Both the position numbers and the translations under genes were made by a program. A DNA stretch of 64,000 nt, taken from the IMG/VR virus record IMGVR_UViG_3300044712_000123, one strand, 5' to 3'. The DNA comes from a virus. Lineage: Duplodnaviria > Heunggongvirae > Uroviricota > Caudoviricetes. Of this stretch, positions 44,099-54,360 are shown piece by piece. The notes beneath the pieces were generated by a model that ran no database searches, was not told the origin of the DNA, and worked only from the letters and a program-made list of their open reading frames with translations. Position 1 is the stretch's first letter; the number at the start of each line of letters is the position of its first letter.

Positions 44099-44452
44099 AT
44101 GAGCATTCAACGCCCTATCTGTCAGAACTGCAATAAGAACTACTGTGCAGTCAATTACATCCGTGCAGGAATTACTCACTATCGCTCATCATGTGACGAG
44201 TGTGGTAGAAAGAAAAACAAATTGAAGCCCAGAAAGGCCAACTGGTCAAAGAGTGGATATAAGAAAAAAGCCACATGTGACTTATGTGGCTTTAAAAGTT
44301 TGTTTACTTCCCAGATCACAGTCTTTCATATTGACGGTGATCTAGAAAATACTCAACTAACTAATCTACGTAGTATTTGTTTAAACTGTGTAGAAGTCGT
44401 CAAGAAGAAGGAAGTAACTTGGCGAAGAGGTGACTTAACTGTTGATTACTGA
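44099..44452 (+). CDS. Cys-rich Zn-binding/HNH-like protein
   Basis: CQNC, CDEC, CDLC; HIDGDLENTQLTNLRSICLNC resembles an HNH motif; TAAATA at 44089-94. Confidence 0.65.
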   Translation: MSIQRPICQNCNKNYCAVNYIRAGITHYRSSCDECGRKKNKLKPRKANWSKSGYKKKATCDLCGFKSLFTSQITVFHIDGDLENTQLTNLRSICLNCVEVVKKKEVTWRRGDLTVDY

Positions 44453-45128: not shown

Positions 45129-45914
45129 TTACCCTTGAATCCATGTTAGTGGTTGGCTGTAATCTACATAGTTCTTCAAGTCCAATAATAATTGTTCTTG
45201 TAATTGTTTAGCTTCTGCTTTCATAGCAGTACCGTTCAATGTAGTTCCACCACCTGGCCCTGCGATAGTACCAAACTTTTCACGTGCTTCACCGATGATG
45301 CCTTTAAGGGTAGCCAAAATATAGTCACCAATCCAAACACCTGCACCCGGGTCTTGTAATAGTACTTCTTCGGTACGCTGGACGTCAGCCCAAATAAGTA
45401 CCTGCTCACCTGTTGCTTTAGGATCACGAACAATACGTAATACCTTAGTGACAGGATCAAATGTATAGACTACATAGCCACCAAACATACGTGCTGCTAA
45501 TTCAACATAACCTGCATAGAAGTCGTATGTTGCCATACCACCAGCAAAGTTATAGTTCAATAGGTATGTATTTAAAATCGCGGAACTGAACGGATCAAAT
45601 GCACTGGATCCTGGACCAGTCTCTAATCCAATTGTGCGTCTATATAAACAACGGACGTTGATAAACTCTTGAGGTAGTGTATAAACATCTACGTTCTTTT
45701 CCACGGTGAATAATGTGTATGATTCCGCTGTGGCATTTTGAGCCCTTTGTCTATATAACTTGATTGTGTAGTTATATGCCGCTTCGAAATGTTCAGGGTC
45801 AATCTCAAGATCAACAATACCATCTCCTAAGCGGTATCGAATGTTCTTGTATAATTCCTGTTTCAATTCATCGAGGGTCATTCCATTCGGGGTAGATAAT
45901 ATATTTGCTGCCAT
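45129..45914 (-). CDS. Neck protein (gp13-like)
   Basis: IRYRLGDGIVDLEIDPEHF, LKGIIGEAREKF, PGGGTTLNGTAMKAEA; GATAAATA at 45932-39. Confidence 0.85.
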   Translation of the reverse strand: MAANILSTPNGMTLDELKQELYKNIRYRLGDGIVDLEIDPEHFEAAYNYTIKLYRQRAQNATAESYTLFTVEKNVDVYTLPQEFINVRCLYRRTIGLETGPGSSAFDPFSSAILNTYLLNYNFAGGMATYDFYAGYVELAARMFGGYVVYTFDPVTKVLRIVRDPKATGEQVLIWADVQRTEEVLLQDPGAGVWIGDYILATLKGIIGEAREKFGTIAGPGGGTTLNGTAMKAEAKQLQEQLLLDLKNYVDYSQPLTWIQG

Positions 45915-45964
45915 ATGTGTTCCTATGTGTATATTTATCTGGTCTATGTGAATTGATATTCTTA

Positions 45965-46309
45965 GGCAATGGCGAGTAGATATGATCTACTCAAACCAAA
46001 GGAACATTCTTGAGGCGTTCAGGCGATGATGAATTAAAAGATTACAGTGGAGGATTGTCTATGTCTCACCGACCCCGTGAAGGGACTTTTCCGTATTCGC
46101 TGTTAAAGTGTAGGTATATTCATCAGGATTCTACACACAGCCCAGGCCCTCTATCGCAATTACTTTGACCTGGCATACTATCAACTATTAAGATATGGGA
46201 AACGTTTCTACGCAGGGGGTAGACGTTTAAGCATCAAAGGGTAGTCCCATAAATGTGATGTTGGTCGTCATCATCTACCGTCACTGCACGTTGAGGACGG
46301 ATTATTGCC
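45965..46309. ncRNA. Candidate large structured ncRNA (unclassified; strand probably minus)
   Basis: ORF-free ~430-nt gap in an otherwise gene-dense genome; closing helix GGCAAT/ATTGCC encloses at least seven further helices (see findings). Confidence 0.55.
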
Positions 46310-46345
46310 ACAGTTCGAGGTCGTGGGTTACCTATTGACCAATAA

Positions 46346-46570
46346 TTATGTCAGCACATCAAAGATTGTGCCGTACTCGTATCTATTCCAGTTATCCATG
46401 TCAACATATGTGTTGATATTGCGTCGGTACACAGTAGTGAGCCAAACTCTTTTGCTGTGTACTTTGACTGGATACCACGCAAACCACTTTTTCCAAGGTC
46501 CGATGGTATGTTTTCTAGGAACAAATCCATAACTCGGGGGAGGTGGGGCAGGATGAAAATTCATTACCAT
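46346..46570 (-). CDS. Small Trp-rich hypothetical protein
   Basis: Likely start 46570 or 46564; WKKWFAWYPVKV..RVWLTTVYRR motif. Confidence 0.6.
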   Translation of the reverse strand: MVMNFHPAPPPPSYGFVPRKHTIGPWKKWFAWYPVKVHSKRVWLTTVYRRNINTYVDMDNWNRYEYGTIFDVLT

Positions 46571-46571
46571 A

Positions 46572-46796
46572 TCATTCTTTGATCTTGAAAACCAAGAACA
46601 AGTCTTTGAGTGGATGATTCCACGGATCAGTGACACCGAATGCCAGGTGACCAAATCTTGTATCACCGTCAACTTTATCTATGTCTTTTTTAGATGTAGT
46701 TCCGTCGATGCAAGTAAGTTCAAATCCGTAGGGTAGTTGTTCATACTCCTCTGGAGTAAACAAATACAGATTAGTTTCTTTACTCCAGAGTTGCAT
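46572..46796 (-). CDS. Hypothetical protein
   Basis: Likely start 46796 (MQLWSKE), just after the MazG stop; LFTPEEYEQLP..DGDTRFGHLAFG. Confidence 0.6.
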   Translation of the reverse strand: MQLWSKETNLYLFTPEEYEQLPYGFELTCIDGTTSKKDIDKVDGDTRFGHLAFGVTDPWNHPLKDLFLVFKIKE

Positions 46797-46797
46797 T

Positions 46798-47235
46798 TTA
46801 GATATCGCCTTCTTTGCGATTCTCTGAATAGTGGGCATTGAATGTGCCACCGGGATAACGTGATTCTAATTTACGCACGTTTTCGTCAATGACTTCGTTA
46901 GGGTCAATGTTCAATGCACGACATGCATTAATCCAGTACCACATAACGTCACCAAGTTCACGCTTCAAGTGAAAGACTTCGGCATCAGTCAATGGCTTGC
47001 CTTGAAAGATGATCTTCTTGGGCACTTCAATGAATTCACCGGACTCTGCTGCCAAGCCGAAACATGCGGTCATCAACAATGCAATGTTGACTTTGGGACC
47101 TTGTGTATCAGTTGCTGGATCAAAGTTGTGATTCAATTCATCAAGGCGATCATGTAGAGTAGCCAAGTCATTGCTTGCTTTGCTGGTTACAGCCTCTACG
47201 AATTGTTTGTATTTGTTTAGATCGATATTGCTCAT
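46798..47235 (-). CDS. mazG: MazG-like NTP pyrophosphohydrolase
   Basis: GLAAESGEFIE..KK, LKRELGDVMWY, NVRKLESRYP. Confidence 0.88.
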   Translation of the reverse strand: MSNIDLNKYKQFVEAVTSKASNDLATLHDRLDELNHNFDPATDTQGPKVNIALLMTACFGLAAESGEFIEVPKKIIFQGKPLTDAEVFHLKRELGDVMWYWINACRALNIDPNEVIDENVRKLESRYPGGTFNAHYSENRKEGDI

Positions 47236-47544
47236 TTATTTCCATAGTTTAAGTAATGAAACAAACTCAGGATAGTCTGTTTCGGGTCTGGGTGATAGCA
47301 CGATTGCTACCTCTTTGCCGTCCAGTCGGCTTTCAGTCACAATGATATTATCGCTTACTTCCTTCAGCATTGCAAACTCTGCGGGCGTAACAGCGCAAGT
47401 AACTTTCTTGAAACTCTTTTTGAGCCAAGTTTCATAGTGCTCCTTACATTCATATTGCAAATGACACATCAATCCTGCATGTGCCGCAGAGTTCATTGCG
47501 ATACCCACTGGGATATCGTCTTTAATGCAAATATACATCTTCAT
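47236..47544 (-). CDS. Peptidyl-tRNA hydrolase PTH2-like protein
   Basis: MYICIKDD..GIAMNSAAHAG, TWLKKSFKKVTC, TES, PRP match the PTH2 layout. Confidence 0.7.
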   Translation of the reverse strand: MKMYICIKDDIPVGIAMNSAAHAGLMCHLQYECKEHYETWLKKSFKKVTCAVTPAEFAMLKEVSDNIIVTESRLDGKEVAIVLSPRPETDYPEFVSLLKLWK

Positions 47545-53025: not shown

Positions 53026-54270
53026 TTAAGCGTTGTTAATAGTTACGATTGGTAGAGGTTGACCACCATATGTATTAGCCGCATAAGCTGTACCAAATGT
53101 TGCTGTTACAGGAGTAGCATTCTGAATGTTTGCTTCGCTGTTGTTGAACAACAATGTGTTGTAGTCGCTTAGTGACTGAACATAAGCCGTACCAGAAGCT
53201 GCATCAGTTGACAAGATTGACATTGTGTTAGGTGTCAATGCTGCGTTTGCAACGTTTGCTGTGTAGCACTGTGCTGTCAAACCTGATGTCAAACCAGTAA
53301 CCAAATATTTTTGCTTACCTTTTTGACGTACAATATAACCAGCTTCATCATTTGCATATACGAAACTTGCTGCGGAAGCGTTAACTGCTGCGTTAGCTGT
53401 CAATACAACTCTATCTTGGACTGCATAAGAAGTAGCATCTTCATCAACAAGAGCAACGTTTGCGCCACCGGCAGTCAAAGAAACACTGAATGCTGCTGCG
53501 TTTGCGATAGTCTTAACAAAGTATGTTGTACCGGCAGTCAAACCACCAATATTAGCAGACAATACGACTGGCTGACTTGCAAACAATGTTTGTGCGTTAC
53601 CAACAGAAGTTAAGAAATTACCAGTTGCTGTAGCATTTGACAACTCGATATTTGCATAACCAGCAACTGATCCAGAAACAAAACCTAAGTTAACGAAGTC
53701 TGTTGACCCGTTGACGTTAGCAACTGCAACTTGAATTGCTGAACCAGCAGACAATGTATTTGCAAAATCAGTACCAGTACCAAATACATTAGCATTGCCA
53801 CTAGATGAGTACAATGCACCTGAACCAGTAACTCCCACAGCAACACGAGTTACTGTTTGAGTGCTGTAGATTCCAGTATTACCACCGACTACACCATAGC
53901 TTGCGCCTGGGTTAGTAGATGTGCCACCTGATTGTGCAGTTGAGTCTGGATTTTGGAAACCGCTGTCAACGATACCACATGATAGAATCACGGATTGACC
54001 AGATGTACCTGATAAGTTCACTGGTGTATTAGTTGGGTTAGCACTAGGTTGAGTAGCAGAAACAGTGAATGTTGATGCACCAGTTACTTCAAGTACCCAG
54101 TATGTTGTACCACCAGTAAGACCGCCAACAGTAGTTGCTGGTACGAAAGGTGTACCGGCAACAATACCAAGAGTCGATAGAGTTTGAGAAACAGTAACTG
54201 CTTCAGTAGATGCACCAGTACCAGTTAAGGTTAATAGAGTAGCTTTCGCTATTTTTAGAGGACGTCCCAT
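53026..54270 (-). CDS. Virion structural protein (tail/fibre-associated)
   Basis: MGRPLK start; two copies of GGLT(G/A)GTTY(W/F)V..F(T/S)VS module; GYIVRQKGKQKYLV; Thr/Ala/Gly-rich. Confidence 0.65.
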   Translation of the reverse strand: MGRPLKIAKATLLTLTGTGASTEAVTVSQTLSTLGIVAGTPFVPATTVGGLTGGTTYWVLEVTGASTFTVSATQPSANPTNTPVNLSGTSGQSVILSCGIVDSGFQNPDSTAQSGGTSTNPGASYGVVGGNTGIYSTQTVTRVAVGVTGSGALYSSSGNANVFGTGTDFANTLSAGSAIQVAVANVNGSTDFVNLGFVSGSVAGYANIELSNATATGNFLTSVGNAQTLFASQPVVLSANIGGLTAGTTYFVKTIANAAAFSVSLTAGGANVALVDEDATSYAVQDRVVLTANAAVNASAASFVYANDEAGYIVRQKGKQKYLVTGLTSGLTAQCYTANVANAALTPNTMSILSTDAASGTAYVQSLSDYNTLLFNNSEANIQNATPVTATFGTAYAANTYGGQPLPIVTINNA

Positions 54271-54360
54271 TTGTTTTTCCTTTATAATGTTCGCGGGTTC
54301 TAGCCGCTACGCAGTGGGTTACTGCATAAATTCTCCGAATGAGAATGTACATTCTATTTA
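54271..54360 (-). promoter_or_regulatory. Late promoter TAAATA followed by a multi-hairpin 5' leader
   Basis: TAAATA at 54355-60; hairpins TTCTC/GAGAA, GCAGT/ACTGC, GCGG/CCGC; RBS TAAAGGAAAAACAAATG. Confidence 0.55.

What the first reader, a model, noticed from the sequence alone, without database searches (positions are those of the whole stretch)
45965..46309. Unclassified ~345-nt multi-helix non-coding element between neck gene and early operon
This is the largest ORF-free gap in the window (45915-46345). Helices seen: closing GGCAAT 45965-70/ATTGCC 46304-09; GAGTAGA 45974-80/TCTACTC 45986-92; TCAC 46066-69/GTGA 46077-80; GCTGT 46099-103/ACAGC 46137-41 enclosing GTGTAG 46108-13/CTACAC 46131-36; CCAGG 46142-46/CCTGG 46169-73; AAACGT 46200-05/ACGTTT 46223-28 with CTAC/GTAG; TGATG 46256-60/CATCA 46269-73; CCGTC 46278-82/GACGG 46296-300. 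The tract 46243-50 (AGTCCCAT) can pair either with ATGGGA 46195-200 or with GGGACT 46082-87, which suggests a switch or pseudoknot. It does not look like tRNA, tmRNA, 6S or RNase P. Inference: a novel large phage ncRNA, or alternatively a structured replication origin.
Basis: partly seen in the sequence, partly recalled or inferred. Interest (0 to 1): 0.8.

Follow-up and report, generated by a model that had tools for sequence, protein, structure and literature searches.

The report
New large pseudoknotted phage RNA
The gene-free 430 bases in front of the neck gene of this uncultured giant lake phage encode a real, roughly 390-base, intricately knotted RNA (on the opposite strand to the one proposed) that recurs in many related phage contigs, matches no catalogued RNA family, carries a built-in two-state switch at its 3' end, and has no demonstrated function.

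Summary
The gap is real and holds a conserved structured RNA. It lies on the minus strand, like its neighbours, at about 46345-45955. Across 39 diverse homologues, 83 base pairs in 16 helices (four of them pseudoknots) are 91.8% paired, against 36-46% for slid controls, and 45 pairs show compensatory changes. G.U outnumbers A.C 113 to 20, which sets the strand.

The "closing" helix, TCAC/GTGA and the proposed alternative pairing do not. Single-sequence folding energy is unremarkable.

No Rfam family matches, no cultured phage carries the RNA, and no paper was found. This scan had already flagged the same family on other genomes.

New here:
- The RNA always forms the tail of an early operon, at the border with late genes, in three different phage contexts.
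- It is accessory.
- A loop "guide" pairs alternately with two co-varying sites. The second site is the 3' arm of the terminal hairpin, which in distant relatives is followed by a U run, like a terminator.
- Alleles with the RNA lack the hairpin that otherwise masks the neck gene's ribosome site on early read-through RNA.

My best guess is a cis-acting read-through switch. A trans-acting ornate RNA is nearly as likely. Resemblance to group I introns is weak.

The parts
45955..46345 (-). Whole structured RNA, about 390 nt. Its 5' end follows the stop codon of the upstream gene directly, and its 3' end is the motif GCCUAAGAAUAUC.
   Evidence: nhmmer with the family profile finds one copy, 46345-45955, E 1e-118. 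Covariation is and the strand.
46261..46342 (-). 5' domain. Pseudoknot Pa pairs UUGGUC (46342-37) with the loop GACCAA (46266-61) of hairpin Pc (46272-46257). An H-type pseudoknot joins AGGU/ACCU (46333-30/46321-18) with CCAC/GUGG (46326-23/46311-08). There is also a hairpin CCGUC/GACGG (46300-296/46282-78).
   Evidence: helices 1-4: 81-100% paired, with compensatory changes in 12 of 19 pairs.
46194..46251 (-). Pd helix UAUGGG/CCCAUA encloses the invariant GACUACC (46246-40) and the hairpin AAACG-CUAC/GUAG-CGUUU.
   Evidence: helices 5-7. Pd is 100% paired, with 4 of 6 pairs compensatory.
46142..46173 (-). Hairpin Pg (CCAGGUC/GGCCUGG). Its invariant 18-nt loop carries the 'guide' UUGCGAUAGAG (46159-46149).
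   Evidence: helix 8 (99.6% paired, 6 of 7 pairs compensatory)..
46099..46141 (-). Hairpin Ph/Pi (GCUG...CAGC, GUGUAG/CUACAC). Its loop UGAUGAA (46125-19) forms pseudoknot Pj with UUCAUCA (46033-27).
   Evidence: helices 10-12. Pj changes completely but stays complementary in L202 (CCAAC/GUUGG) and in type B (UUCACU/AGUGAA).
46036..46090 (-). Three-way element: Pl AAAAG/CUUUU, Pm CCC/GGG, and Pn CGGUG/CACUG with the near-invariant 17-nt loop AGACAUAGACAAUCCUC (46066-46050).
   Evidence: helices 13-15. The loop reads GAUAUAGUCAAUCC in more distant members.
46005..46027 (-). 3' module 1: site (i) AUCGCC (46027-22), which pairs with the guide (pseudoknot Pk), plus the motif GCCUCAAGAAUG (46016-05).
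   Evidence: helix 9 (98.1% paired)..
45955..45992 (-). Terminal hairpin Po (GAGUAGAU 45992-85 with AUCUACUC 45981-74) and 3' module 2. Module 2 is site (ii) UCUA(C)UCGCCA (45980-70), the alternative partner of the guide, plus the motif GCCUAAGAAUAUC (45967-55).
   Evidence: Guide:(ii) is 99.7% paired with 2 compensatory pairs. It is fully compensated in L202, L225, L352 and L315. Po folds at -9.3 kcal/mol, z -2.7.
45932..45939 (-). T4-type late promoter core GATAAATA of the neck gene, just outside the RNA.
   Evidence: It was seen before the neck gene in nearly all alleles examined, with or without the RNA. The T4 late-promoter consensus TATAAATA is established knowledge.
45129..45924 (-). 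Neck or head-tail adaptor gene (261 aa) with its Shine-Dalgarno AGGAAC (45924-19). This is the constant downstream neighbour of the RNA in this clade.
   Evidence: PHROG 211 'head-tail adaptor Ad2', E 9e-24.
46346..47235 (-). Upstream early-type operon tail: MazG (46798-47235) and two small ORFs (46572-46850, 46346-46672). The RNA is most simply co-transcribed with it.
   Evidence: No promoter-like site lies on the minus strand in the gap.

Best explanation
Shown: window 46345-45955, minus strand, encodes a conserved RNA of about 390 nt. It folds into at least 16 helices, including five long-range loop-to-strand pseudoknots.

Inferred:
- The RNA has no promoter of its own that I can see. In every context it sits directly after an early-type operon, on the same strand. 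It is therefore most likely made as the tail of early or middle transcripts.
- Its 3' end is a two-state device. A conserved 'guide' in the loop of hairpin Pg pairs either with internal site (i), leaving the terminal hairpin Po intact, or with site (ii), which is the 3' arm of Po, so that Po cannot form.
- In distant relatives Po is followed by a U run, like an intrinsic terminator. The fold therefore most likely decides whether RNA synthesis stops at the early/late border or runs on into the late structural genes.
- In the window's clade the cassette has replaced the simple hairpin that otherwise hides the neck gene's ribosome-binding site on early read-through RNA.
- What flips the switch (a metabolite, a protein, another RNA, or just the order of co-transcriptional folding) is unknown.

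I put the existence and strand of the RNA at about 0.95, the two alternative pairings at about 0.8, and the cis-acting read-through role at about 0.35.
For: Family and structure:
- More than 70 homologues, 54 distinct, were found by neighbour-gene and core-motif scans.
- 91.8% of cells are paired, against 36-46% for slid controls. 45 of 83 pairs are compensatory, and no shuffle of 500 reaches the covariation score.
- G.U 113 against A.C 20 fixes the strand.

Position:
- The RNA is always directly upstream of the neck gene and on the same strand, wherever enough flank is held.
- Distant members lie after a RusA-like/SbcC-like operon (type B) or after small early-type genes (type A2). All are at a border with structural genes.

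Switch:
- Guide:(i) is 98.1% paired. Guide:(ii) is 99.7% paired, with U-A/A-U at 24:13 and C-G/U-A at 35:4.
- Both pairings are re-compensated in L237, L202, L225, L352 and L315.
- Po is a stable hairpin in all types. It is followed by U5-U7 in L352, L382 and L315.

Replacement of the masking hairpin:
- 41 alleles without the RNA have a hairpin of median -15 kcal/mol over the late promoter and the SD. 38 alleles with the RNA have median -4.
- On the neck-protein tree the RNA changes state at least 11 times (at least 5 on well-supported branches). The hairpin goes the opposite way in every independent pair.
Against: - In the window's own clade Po has no U tract, so it is not an intrinsic terminator there.
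- The simple terminator scan did not call the type B hairpins either.
- In type B the next gene is convergent, so nothing downstream is obviously switched on.
- In several type A loci a terminator-like hairpin with a U run sits immediately before the RNA (L147, L109, L098, L124). This argues against simple co-transcription.
- The anticorrelation with the masking hairpin is partly explained by the RNA and its promoter region moving together as one recombination cassette (L121 and L151 against L011). The sign test reaches only p about 0.06.
- A simple hairpin does the masking job in relatives, so 390 nt of ornate fold seems excessive for that task alone.
- No ligand or partner is known, and there are no transcript data.
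Confidence: 0.35

Rival explanations
1. A free-standing, trans-acting 'ornate' RNA: an RNA-protein scaffold, an oligomeric RNA particle, a decoy against a host defence, or a ribozyme acting on another substrate. On this reading it merely rides at the end of an early operon. The terminal hairpin is just its 3' end, and the guide:(ii) pairing belongs to maturation or the final fold, not to gene control.
For: - The RNA is large, has five pseudoknots and carries long invariant unpaired stretches, as in GOLLD, ROOL and OLE.
- It is accessory and sporadic among close relatives, like anti-defence and other accessory genes: only 15 of the 80 closest neck-gene loci carry it, and it changes state at least 11 times on the tree.
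- It occurs in three unrelated gene contexts.
- In type B it ends in a hairpin plus U run and faces a convergent gene, so there is no downstream target.
- The two 3' modules change in parallel without any covarying internal partner, as expected if an outside factor reads both.
- The same genome is rich in other unusual RNAs, according to earlier notes of this scan.
Against: - No protein gene co-occurs with it within 4 kb upstream.
- Its position is strictly fixed at the operon end, next to the late promoter, in every member seen.
- Two mutually exclusive, separately covarying pairings at the 3' end are the signature of a regulatory switch.
- The SD-masking hairpin is lost exactly where the RNA is present.
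Confidence: 0.35
2. A ribozyme descended from the catalytic core of a group I (IA, td-like) intron. The strands would be connected in circularly permuted order: P7 5' strand, P7.1-like hairpin, P3' strand, S element, then a P2-like hairpin and the P3 5' strand at the 3' end.
For: - More distant members carry GAGAUAUAGUCAAUCC. This matches the RF00028 consensus AAGAUAUAGUCuaauc, with p about 0.003-0.03 per sequence against dinucleotide shuffles.
- The invariant GACUA is followed by a small variable hairpin, as in td (GACUA-UCCCUUUGGGGA). The guide holds CGAUAGA, the td P3' strand. It pairs with UCUA(C)UCGC much as td pairs UCUAUC with GAUAGA.
- The order GACUA, then CGAUAGA, then S-like element, then P3 partner is a rotation of the group I order.
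- Sporadic presence or absence at a precise site is typical of T-even introns.
Against: - The Rfam group I model finds nothing in the window RNA, in 17 homologue loci, or in the L203 RNA alone at E up to 10. It does find T4 td and nrdB at E 9e-8 and 2e-6.
- The family profile against 49 kb of T4 gives no significant hit; the best hit in td has E 30.
- The R-like match is not significant (p about 0.5).
- The would-be P7 pairing shows no covariation. Its second pair is A.A in the window clade, A.G in L172 and U.U in L297.
- No P4-P6 domain, P1 or splice sites can be recognised, and the element lies between genes.
- The motif matches were noticed post hoc.
Confidence: 0.08
3. A structured DNA element, such as a replication origin or a single-strand initiation site, not an RNA.
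For: - It is an intergenic site at a module border.
- G.T wobble would also be tolerated in folded single-stranded DNA.
- T4-type origins are dispensable.
Against: - There are no iterons or direct repeats beyond chance.
- GC content is 0.40-0.445, like the flanks, and shows no skew change.
- Five pseudoknots and conserved U.G pairs argue for a folded single strand under strong selection.
- Type B members end with a hairpin and a U run.
Confidence: 0.03
4. A decayed or small protein-coding gene.
For: L002, L003 and L021 have an 83-aa ORF inside the element.
Against: - The window RNA has 6-12 stops per sense frame.
- The median longest open run is 43 codons.
- 378 of 386 indels are not multiples of three.
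- Conservation follows helices, not codons.
Confidence: 0.01

Closest known systems
GOLLD, ROOL and OLE: large 'ornate' bacterial and phage RNAs (Rfam; cryo-EM in PMC12286853)
   Same: Several hundred nucleotides long. Many helices and pseudoknots, with long invariant unpaired stretches. Phage-borne, found in lake metagenomes, and of unknown function.
   Different: No sequence or structure match to any of them in Rfam 15. The RNA is smaller. Its position is fixed at the end of an early operon. It has a two-state 3' end.
Terminator/antiterminator leader RNAs (riboswitches, T-box)
   Same: A folded sensor domain shares one strand with a terminal hairpin, so that two mutually exclusive pairings exist. 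In type B relatives that hairpin carries a U run.
   Different: It sits at the tail of an operon, not in a 5' leader. It is far larger than known aptamers. The shared strand is the 3' arm of the hairpin. There is no U tract in the window's clade. No ligand is known, and no Rfam riboswitch or T-box match was found.
T4 late-gene translational masking hairpins (gene e lysozyme, soc, gene 49; from my own knowledge of the T4 literature)
   Same: Same genomic logic. A late promoter sits inside or next to a structure that affects how early read-through RNA is used. Alleles without the RNA have exactly this hairpin.
   Different: The RNA lies wholly upstream of the late promoter, does not itself contain the SD, and is 390 nt long rather than about 35 nt.
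Group I introns of T-even phages (td, nrdB; Rfam RF00028)
   Same: Short motifs resemble td, and some resemble the RF00028 consensus: GACUA plus a following hairpin, CGAUAGA, and GAUAUAGUC-AAUC. Distribution among close phages is sporadic.
   Different: The covariance-model test fails, the connectivity differs, there is no P4-P6 or P1, the location is intergenic, and the putative P7 pairing is not maintained.
HK022 put RNAs (cis-acting antitermination RNAs; from my own knowledge)
   Same: A phage RNA element that would act in cis on transcription read-through without an obvious protein partner.
   Different: put RNAs are about 70 nt with two stem-loops and lie just after early promoters. There is no similarity in sequence or structure.

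Membership tests
Any Rfam 15 family (including 6S, RNase P, tmRNA, GOLLD, ROOL, OLE, HEARO, riboswitches, T-box) | Covariance-model match at or near the gathering score | tested here: not met
   Only freshwater-2 matches, and it lies elsewhere in the window. Nothing meaningful appears at E up to 10 in the gap, in 17 homologue loci, or in the L203 RNA alone. ARAGORN finds no tRNA or tmRNA.
Group I intron | Match to the RF00028 core model | tested here: not met
   No hit at E up to 10. The positive controls T4 td and nrdB hit at E 9.2e-8 and 2.3e-6.
Group I intron | P7 helix (R with S) maintained, with the guanosine-binding G-C and A-U pairs | tested here: not met
   GACUA is opposite UAGAC in the window (A.A). 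It is opposite UAGUC in L203, L237, L202 and type B, UAGGC in L172, and GUCUA/UAGUC in L297. There is no compensatory change.
Group I intron | Helix order P1-P2-P3-P4-P5-P6-P7-P3'-P8-P7'-P9, with flanking exons | tested here: not met
   The covarying helices give a different connectivity. The element lies between a stop codon and a promoter.
Group I intron | Self-splicing or guanosine-dependent cleavage | not testable with these tools
   Needs an in vitro assay.
Transcription-attenuating leader or riboswitch | Mutually exclusive pairings, one of which is an intrinsic terminator | tested here: inconclusive
   The alternative pairings are supported. A hairpin plus U5-U7 is present in type B but was not called by the simple scan. 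There is no U tract in the window.
Transcription-attenuating leader or riboswitch | A co-directional regulated gene downstream | tested here: inconclusive
   Met in types A and A2 (neck gene; a 280-aa gene). Not met in type B, where the next gene is a convergent baseplate-hub gene.
Transcription-attenuating leader or riboswitch | Specific ligand or effector binding | not testable with these tools
   No candidate ligand; needs binding assays.
T4-type RBS-masking hairpin at a late promoter | A stem that holds the late promoter in its 5' arm or loop and the SD in its 3' arm | tested here: not met
   The window gives -0.7 kcal/mol. Alleles without the RNA give a median of -15 kcal/mol.
Replication origin | Iterons, an AT-rich unwinding element, or a change in skew | tested here: not met

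The most novel reading that the evidence does not exclude
The RNA is a new ribozyme class whose core strands descend from a group I (td-like) intron but are joined in circularly permuted order. The duplicated 3' modules would be its two alternative substrates, so that it cuts, joins or circularises RNA at the early/late border of giant phages.
Probability: 0.08. Interest if true: 0.95.

Novelty: categorically new. Interest (0 to 1): 0.8.

Why it matters
Large, pseudoknot-rich RNAs with many invariant unpaired nucleotides have so far nearly always turned out to be ribozymes, sensors or the cores of RNA-protein machines, and only a handful of such orphan classes are known. This family has more than 70 natural variants for structure work. 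It has a fixed, interpretable genomic position, at the tail of an early operon next to a late promoter. It also has a clearly readable two-state 3' end. Together these turn "function unknown" into specific experiments: termination and read-through assays with compensatory mutants, probing of the two states, and cryo-EM. If it times the early-to-late transition in giant T4-like phages, it would be an RNA-based layer of phage developmental control that has not been described.

Tried and rejected
- **Rfam.** I searched at gathering and at permissive thresholds on the window, on 17 homologue loci and on one RNA alone. Nothing was found.
- **tRNA and tmRNA.** The ARAGORN scan found none.
- **Single-sequence folding energy.** It is not better than shuffles on either strand. 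It is uninformative here because pseudoknots are not modelled.
- **Cultured phages.** blastn of types A, A2 and B against 50,697 phage records found no RNA match.
- **Own genome.** No whole genome is held for this window. The family profile finds one copy in the window.
- **Partner protein.** I looked for a co-occurring protein gene in the 4 kb upstream of 89 loci. Only small ORFs present in about a third of RNA-bearing loci are enriched, and none is obligatory.
- **Own promoter.** There is no minus-strand sigma-70-like site in the gap and no conserved motif in the 5' flanks.
- **RNA model.** I did not build a covariance model of the whole RNA. At about 390 positions it is far above what the tool's stated calibration times allow, so I used hand-read helices with the count of structure pairs instead.
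- **Coding.** The 83-aa ORF in L002, L003 and L021 is rejected as coding.
The closing helix, TCAC/GTGA and the alternative GGGACU pairing are rejected.
- **Linker pairing.** Pairing of the linker UCUUA with the AAGAAU motifs was considered. The linker does not covary with them.
- **SD masking by the RNA.** Pairing of the RNA's GUUCCU with the neck-gene SD is possible in the window but is not conserved in relatives (by eye).
- **Group I mapping.** Linear mapping is rejected. Permuted mapping is kept only as a low-probability lead.
- **Literature.** Three searches found nothing on this RNA. One search failed on term syntax.

Full report
**Setting**

The window is part of an uncultured T4-like giant phage, and nearly all its genes lie on the minus strand. 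The gap 45915-46345 lies between two minus-strand genes. Upstream in the direction of transcription is a small ORF (46346-46672) that ends a mazG-containing operon. That operon includes MazG at 46798-47235, a PTH2-like ORF and a 395-aa gene. Downstream is a 261-aa head-tail adaptor (neck) gene at 45129-45914, followed by dNMP kinase and a 1200-aa tail sheath gene. This is the largest gap between long ORFs in the window.

The sequence and most of the listed stems are there. The minimum free energy has z = -1.32 on the plus strand and -0.25 on the minus strand. Rfam finds nothing in the gap and ARAGORN finds no tRNA or tmRNA. The case rests on comparison with relatives.

- A scan of viral contigs with the neck protein gave 80 loci, of which 15 carry a homologue of the gap.
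- A scan with the invariant 17-mer GACATAGACAATCCTCC gave about 70 more.
- Together these are 54 distinct sequences at 68-99% identity.

**Structure and strand**

I read the helices from an alignment of 39 diverse members (A3) and counted them.

- 83 pairs in 16 helices are 91.8% paired, against 36-46% when the partners are slid by 1-3 columns.
- 45 pairs have changes on both sides.
- The covariation score is 0.317, against 0.05-0.07 for slid controls and 0.138 for shuffles (0 of 500 shuffles reach the observed value).
- Four of the counted helices are pseudoknots:
  - UUGGUC with the loop of hairpin Pc.
  - An H-type knot, AGGU/ACCU with CCAC/GUGG.
  - The loop of hairpin Pi (UGAUGAA) with UUCAUCA.
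  - The loop of hairpin Pg (GCGA) with UCGC.
- In these helices G.U cells outnumber A.C cells 113 to 20, and some U.G pairs are the conserved state.
- The element is not coding and has no iterons.
- The family profile finds a single copy in the window.

**Borders and position**

Three relatives have the same upstream ORF but no element (L040, L061, L078). In them the stop codon is followed at once by CCTGATAAATA. The element is therefore a discrete unit of about 390 nt between a stop codon and the T4-type late promoter core GATAAATA (45939-45932). This core was seen before the neck gene in nearly all alleles examined. Wherever enough flank is held, the RNA lies directly upstream of the neck gene on the same strand, over neck-protein identities of 67-96%. 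It is accessory. Most of the closest relatives lack it, and on a neck-protein tree its presence changes at least 11 times, at least 5 of them on well-supported branches. Within 4 kb upstream no protein gene is obligatorily linked to it. MazG and a 391-aa gene are found in nearly all loci, with or without the RNA.

**A wider family**

Motif scans that did not depend on the 17-mer found further members.

- Some lie in the same context (L203, L172, L237).
- Type A2 (L308, L297, L339) lies in front of an unrelated 280-aa gene.
- Type B (L225, L315, L352, L382) lies after a RusA-like and SbcC-like operon. It is followed by a convergent baseplate-hub gene and then a gp5-like hub/lysozyme gene.
- In all of them the RNA is co-directional with an early-type operon, lies immediately after it, and sits at the border to structural genes.
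- None of the three types matches any of 50,697 cultured-phage records.
- Literature searches found nothing on it.
- Earlier agents of this scan had already reported the same family on three other genomes as a new pseudoknotted RNA of unknown function. My results agree with theirs on its reality, its strand and the absence of an Rfam match.

**The 3' switch (new here)**

The 18-nt loop of hairpin Pg holds a near-invariant 'guide', UUGCGAUAGAG (46159-46149). It is complementary to two sites.

- Site (i), AUCGC (46027-23), abuts the Pi-loop pseudoknot.
- Site (ii), UCUA(C)UCGC-C-A (45980-70), is the 3' arm of the terminal hairpin Po (GAGUAGAU/AUCUACUC).
- Both pairings are maintained when the guide changes:
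  - GUGA goes with UCAC at both sites.
  - GCAA goes with UUGC at both sites.
  - The U/A just 5' of GCGA covaries 24:13 with the A/U that follows site (ii).
- In distant members everything changes together:
  - L202 has GGGUAGA with UCUACCC.
  - L225 has AUGGUAAA with UUUAC(C)CAU, including the bulged C.
  - L352 has GGGUAAA with UUUACCC.
  - L315 has GUGGA with UCCAC.
  - In each, site (i) is matched as well (ACCU, CAU, CCC, CAC).
- One guide cannot hold both sites at once, and site (ii) cannot pair with the guide and with the 5' arm of Po at the same time. These are therefore two alternative states.
- Po is a stable hairpin in every type. In L352, L382 and L315 it is followed by U5-U7, with an A run before it in L382, so it looks like an intrinsic (in L382 bidirectional) terminator. 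The tool's simple scan did not call these sites.
- In the window Po is followed by GCCAUUGCC with no U run.
- The two 3' modules (UCGCC...CCUCAAGAAU and UCGCC...CCUAAGAAU) also change in parallel, and I could find no covarying partner for their second halves.

**The masking hairpin**

In all 41 distinct alleles without the RNA, the late promoter and the neck gene's Shine-Dalgarno lie in the two arms of a 10-15 bp hairpin, median -15 kcal/mol. This is the arrangement known from T4 genes e, soc and 49. There, early read-through RNA is untranslatable, and late RNA that starts inside the hairpin is translated. That comparison rests on my own knowledge, and another reader of this scan noted the same hairpin. 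In the 38 distinct RNA-bearing alleles the hairpin is weak or absent, median -4 kcal/mol and -0.7 in the window. In every independent pair on the tree the hairpin goes the opposite way to the RNA. Part of this is linkage. The RNA and its own version of the promoter region move as one cassette, with variable crossover points. L151 keeps the inner stem, while L121 carries the cassette's version.

**Mechanism**

The following points are shown:

- A folded minus-strand RNA.
- Its position at the tail of an early operon.
- Two alternative 3' pairings.
- U-tailed terminal hairpins in type B.
- Loss of the masking hairpin wherever the RNA is present.

The following points are inferred:

- The RNA is made by transcription running out of the early operon.
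- The state of its fold decides whether the terminal hairpin forms, and hence whether RNA ends at the early/late border or runs on.

Several facts weigh against this. There is no U tract in the window's clade. The next gene is convergent in type B. Some type A loci have terminator-like hairpins just before the RNA. The fold is very large and ornate. No effector is known. I therefore give the cis-switch model about 0.35. A trans-acting ornate RNA (scaffold, particle, decoy or ribozyme) that only rides at the operon end gets about the same.

**Group I lead**

More distant members read GAGAUAUAGUCAAUCC in the 17-nt loop. This matches the most conserved group I element as printed for RF00028. GACUA followed by a small hairpin, and CGAUAGA in the guide, resemble T4 td. 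The order of these strands is a rotation of the group I order. However:

- The covariance model finds td and nrdB but none of these RNAs.
- The family profile does not find T4 introns.
- Only the S-like match beats shuffles, with p about 0.003-0.03, and the R-like match does not.
- The putative P7 pairing is not maintained.
- No P4-P6, P1 or exons exist.

I keep this as a low-probability reading (about 0.08) that is cheap to test.

**Verdict**

The finding is real and worth pursuing. It is a new, large, pseudoknotted phage RNA family with a readable two-state 3' end and an informative genomic position.

Noticed in passing
window 54268-54346 (-): Rfam freshwater-2 RNA (RF02980), 69.8 bits against a gathering score of 49.9. 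It lies between two divergent genes and is the only Rfam hit in the window.
   Followed up: no
L011, L014, L023, L078 and 37 other alleles without the RNA, about 45 nt before the neck-gene ATG: A 10-15 bp hairpin, median -15 kcal/mol, holds the late promoter GATAAATA in its 5' arm or loop and the neck-gene Shine-Dalgarno in its 3' arm. This is a T4 gene e/soc-type mask for early read-through RNA. It is absent or weak in all RNA-bearing alleles.
   Followed up: yes
L111, L148, L135, L156, L136: 20-60 nt after the RNA's 3' end: Two or three copies of AACCCAYAGAC lie between the RNA and the late promoter. The same CAUAGAC occurs in the RNA's invariant 17-nt loop and once in the window at about 45949-45943.
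   Followed up: no
window 46026-46005 and 45976-45955 (-): Two similar 3' modules (UCGCC...CCUCAAGAAU and UCGCC...CCUAAGAAU) change in parallel among relatives: AGUAAU in both in L134, and UGCUGAU in both in L100. No covarying internal partner was found, so an outside factor may read both.
   Followed up: partly
L225, L315, L352, L382 (type B) and L308, L297, L339 (type A2): Distant relatives of the RNA occur in other phage contexts. Type B follows a RusA-like resolvase gene, ends in a hairpin plus U run, and faces a convergent baseplate-hub gene. Type A2 lies before an unannotated 280-aa gene whose product starts with MC.
   Followed up: partly
L252, L174, L233: Partial profile hits share only the Pd-GACUACC-hairpin-AAAxG module and the UCUUAAUGGUUG linker, then diverge. 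This may be a second, related RNA family in other phages; L233 lies upstream of an HNH endonuclease gene and a tail-fibre-like gene.
   Followed up: no
window 44099-44452 (+) and 47236-47544 (-): A small opposite-strand ORF with a weak HNH-endonuclease match lies between the dNMP kinase and sheath genes. A PTH2-like (peptidyl-tRNA hydrolase) ORF, just below the Pfam cut-off, lies in the mazG operon.
   Followed up: no
L147, L109, L098, L124, L119: immediately 5' of the RNA: A GC-rich hairpin with flanking A and U runs (AAAACGGGC...GCCCGUUUUUU) abuts the first base of the RNA. Other loci have UUCG-capped hairpins without a U run at the same place. This is unexplained if the RNA is simply co-transcribed with the upstream gene.
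   Followed up: partly
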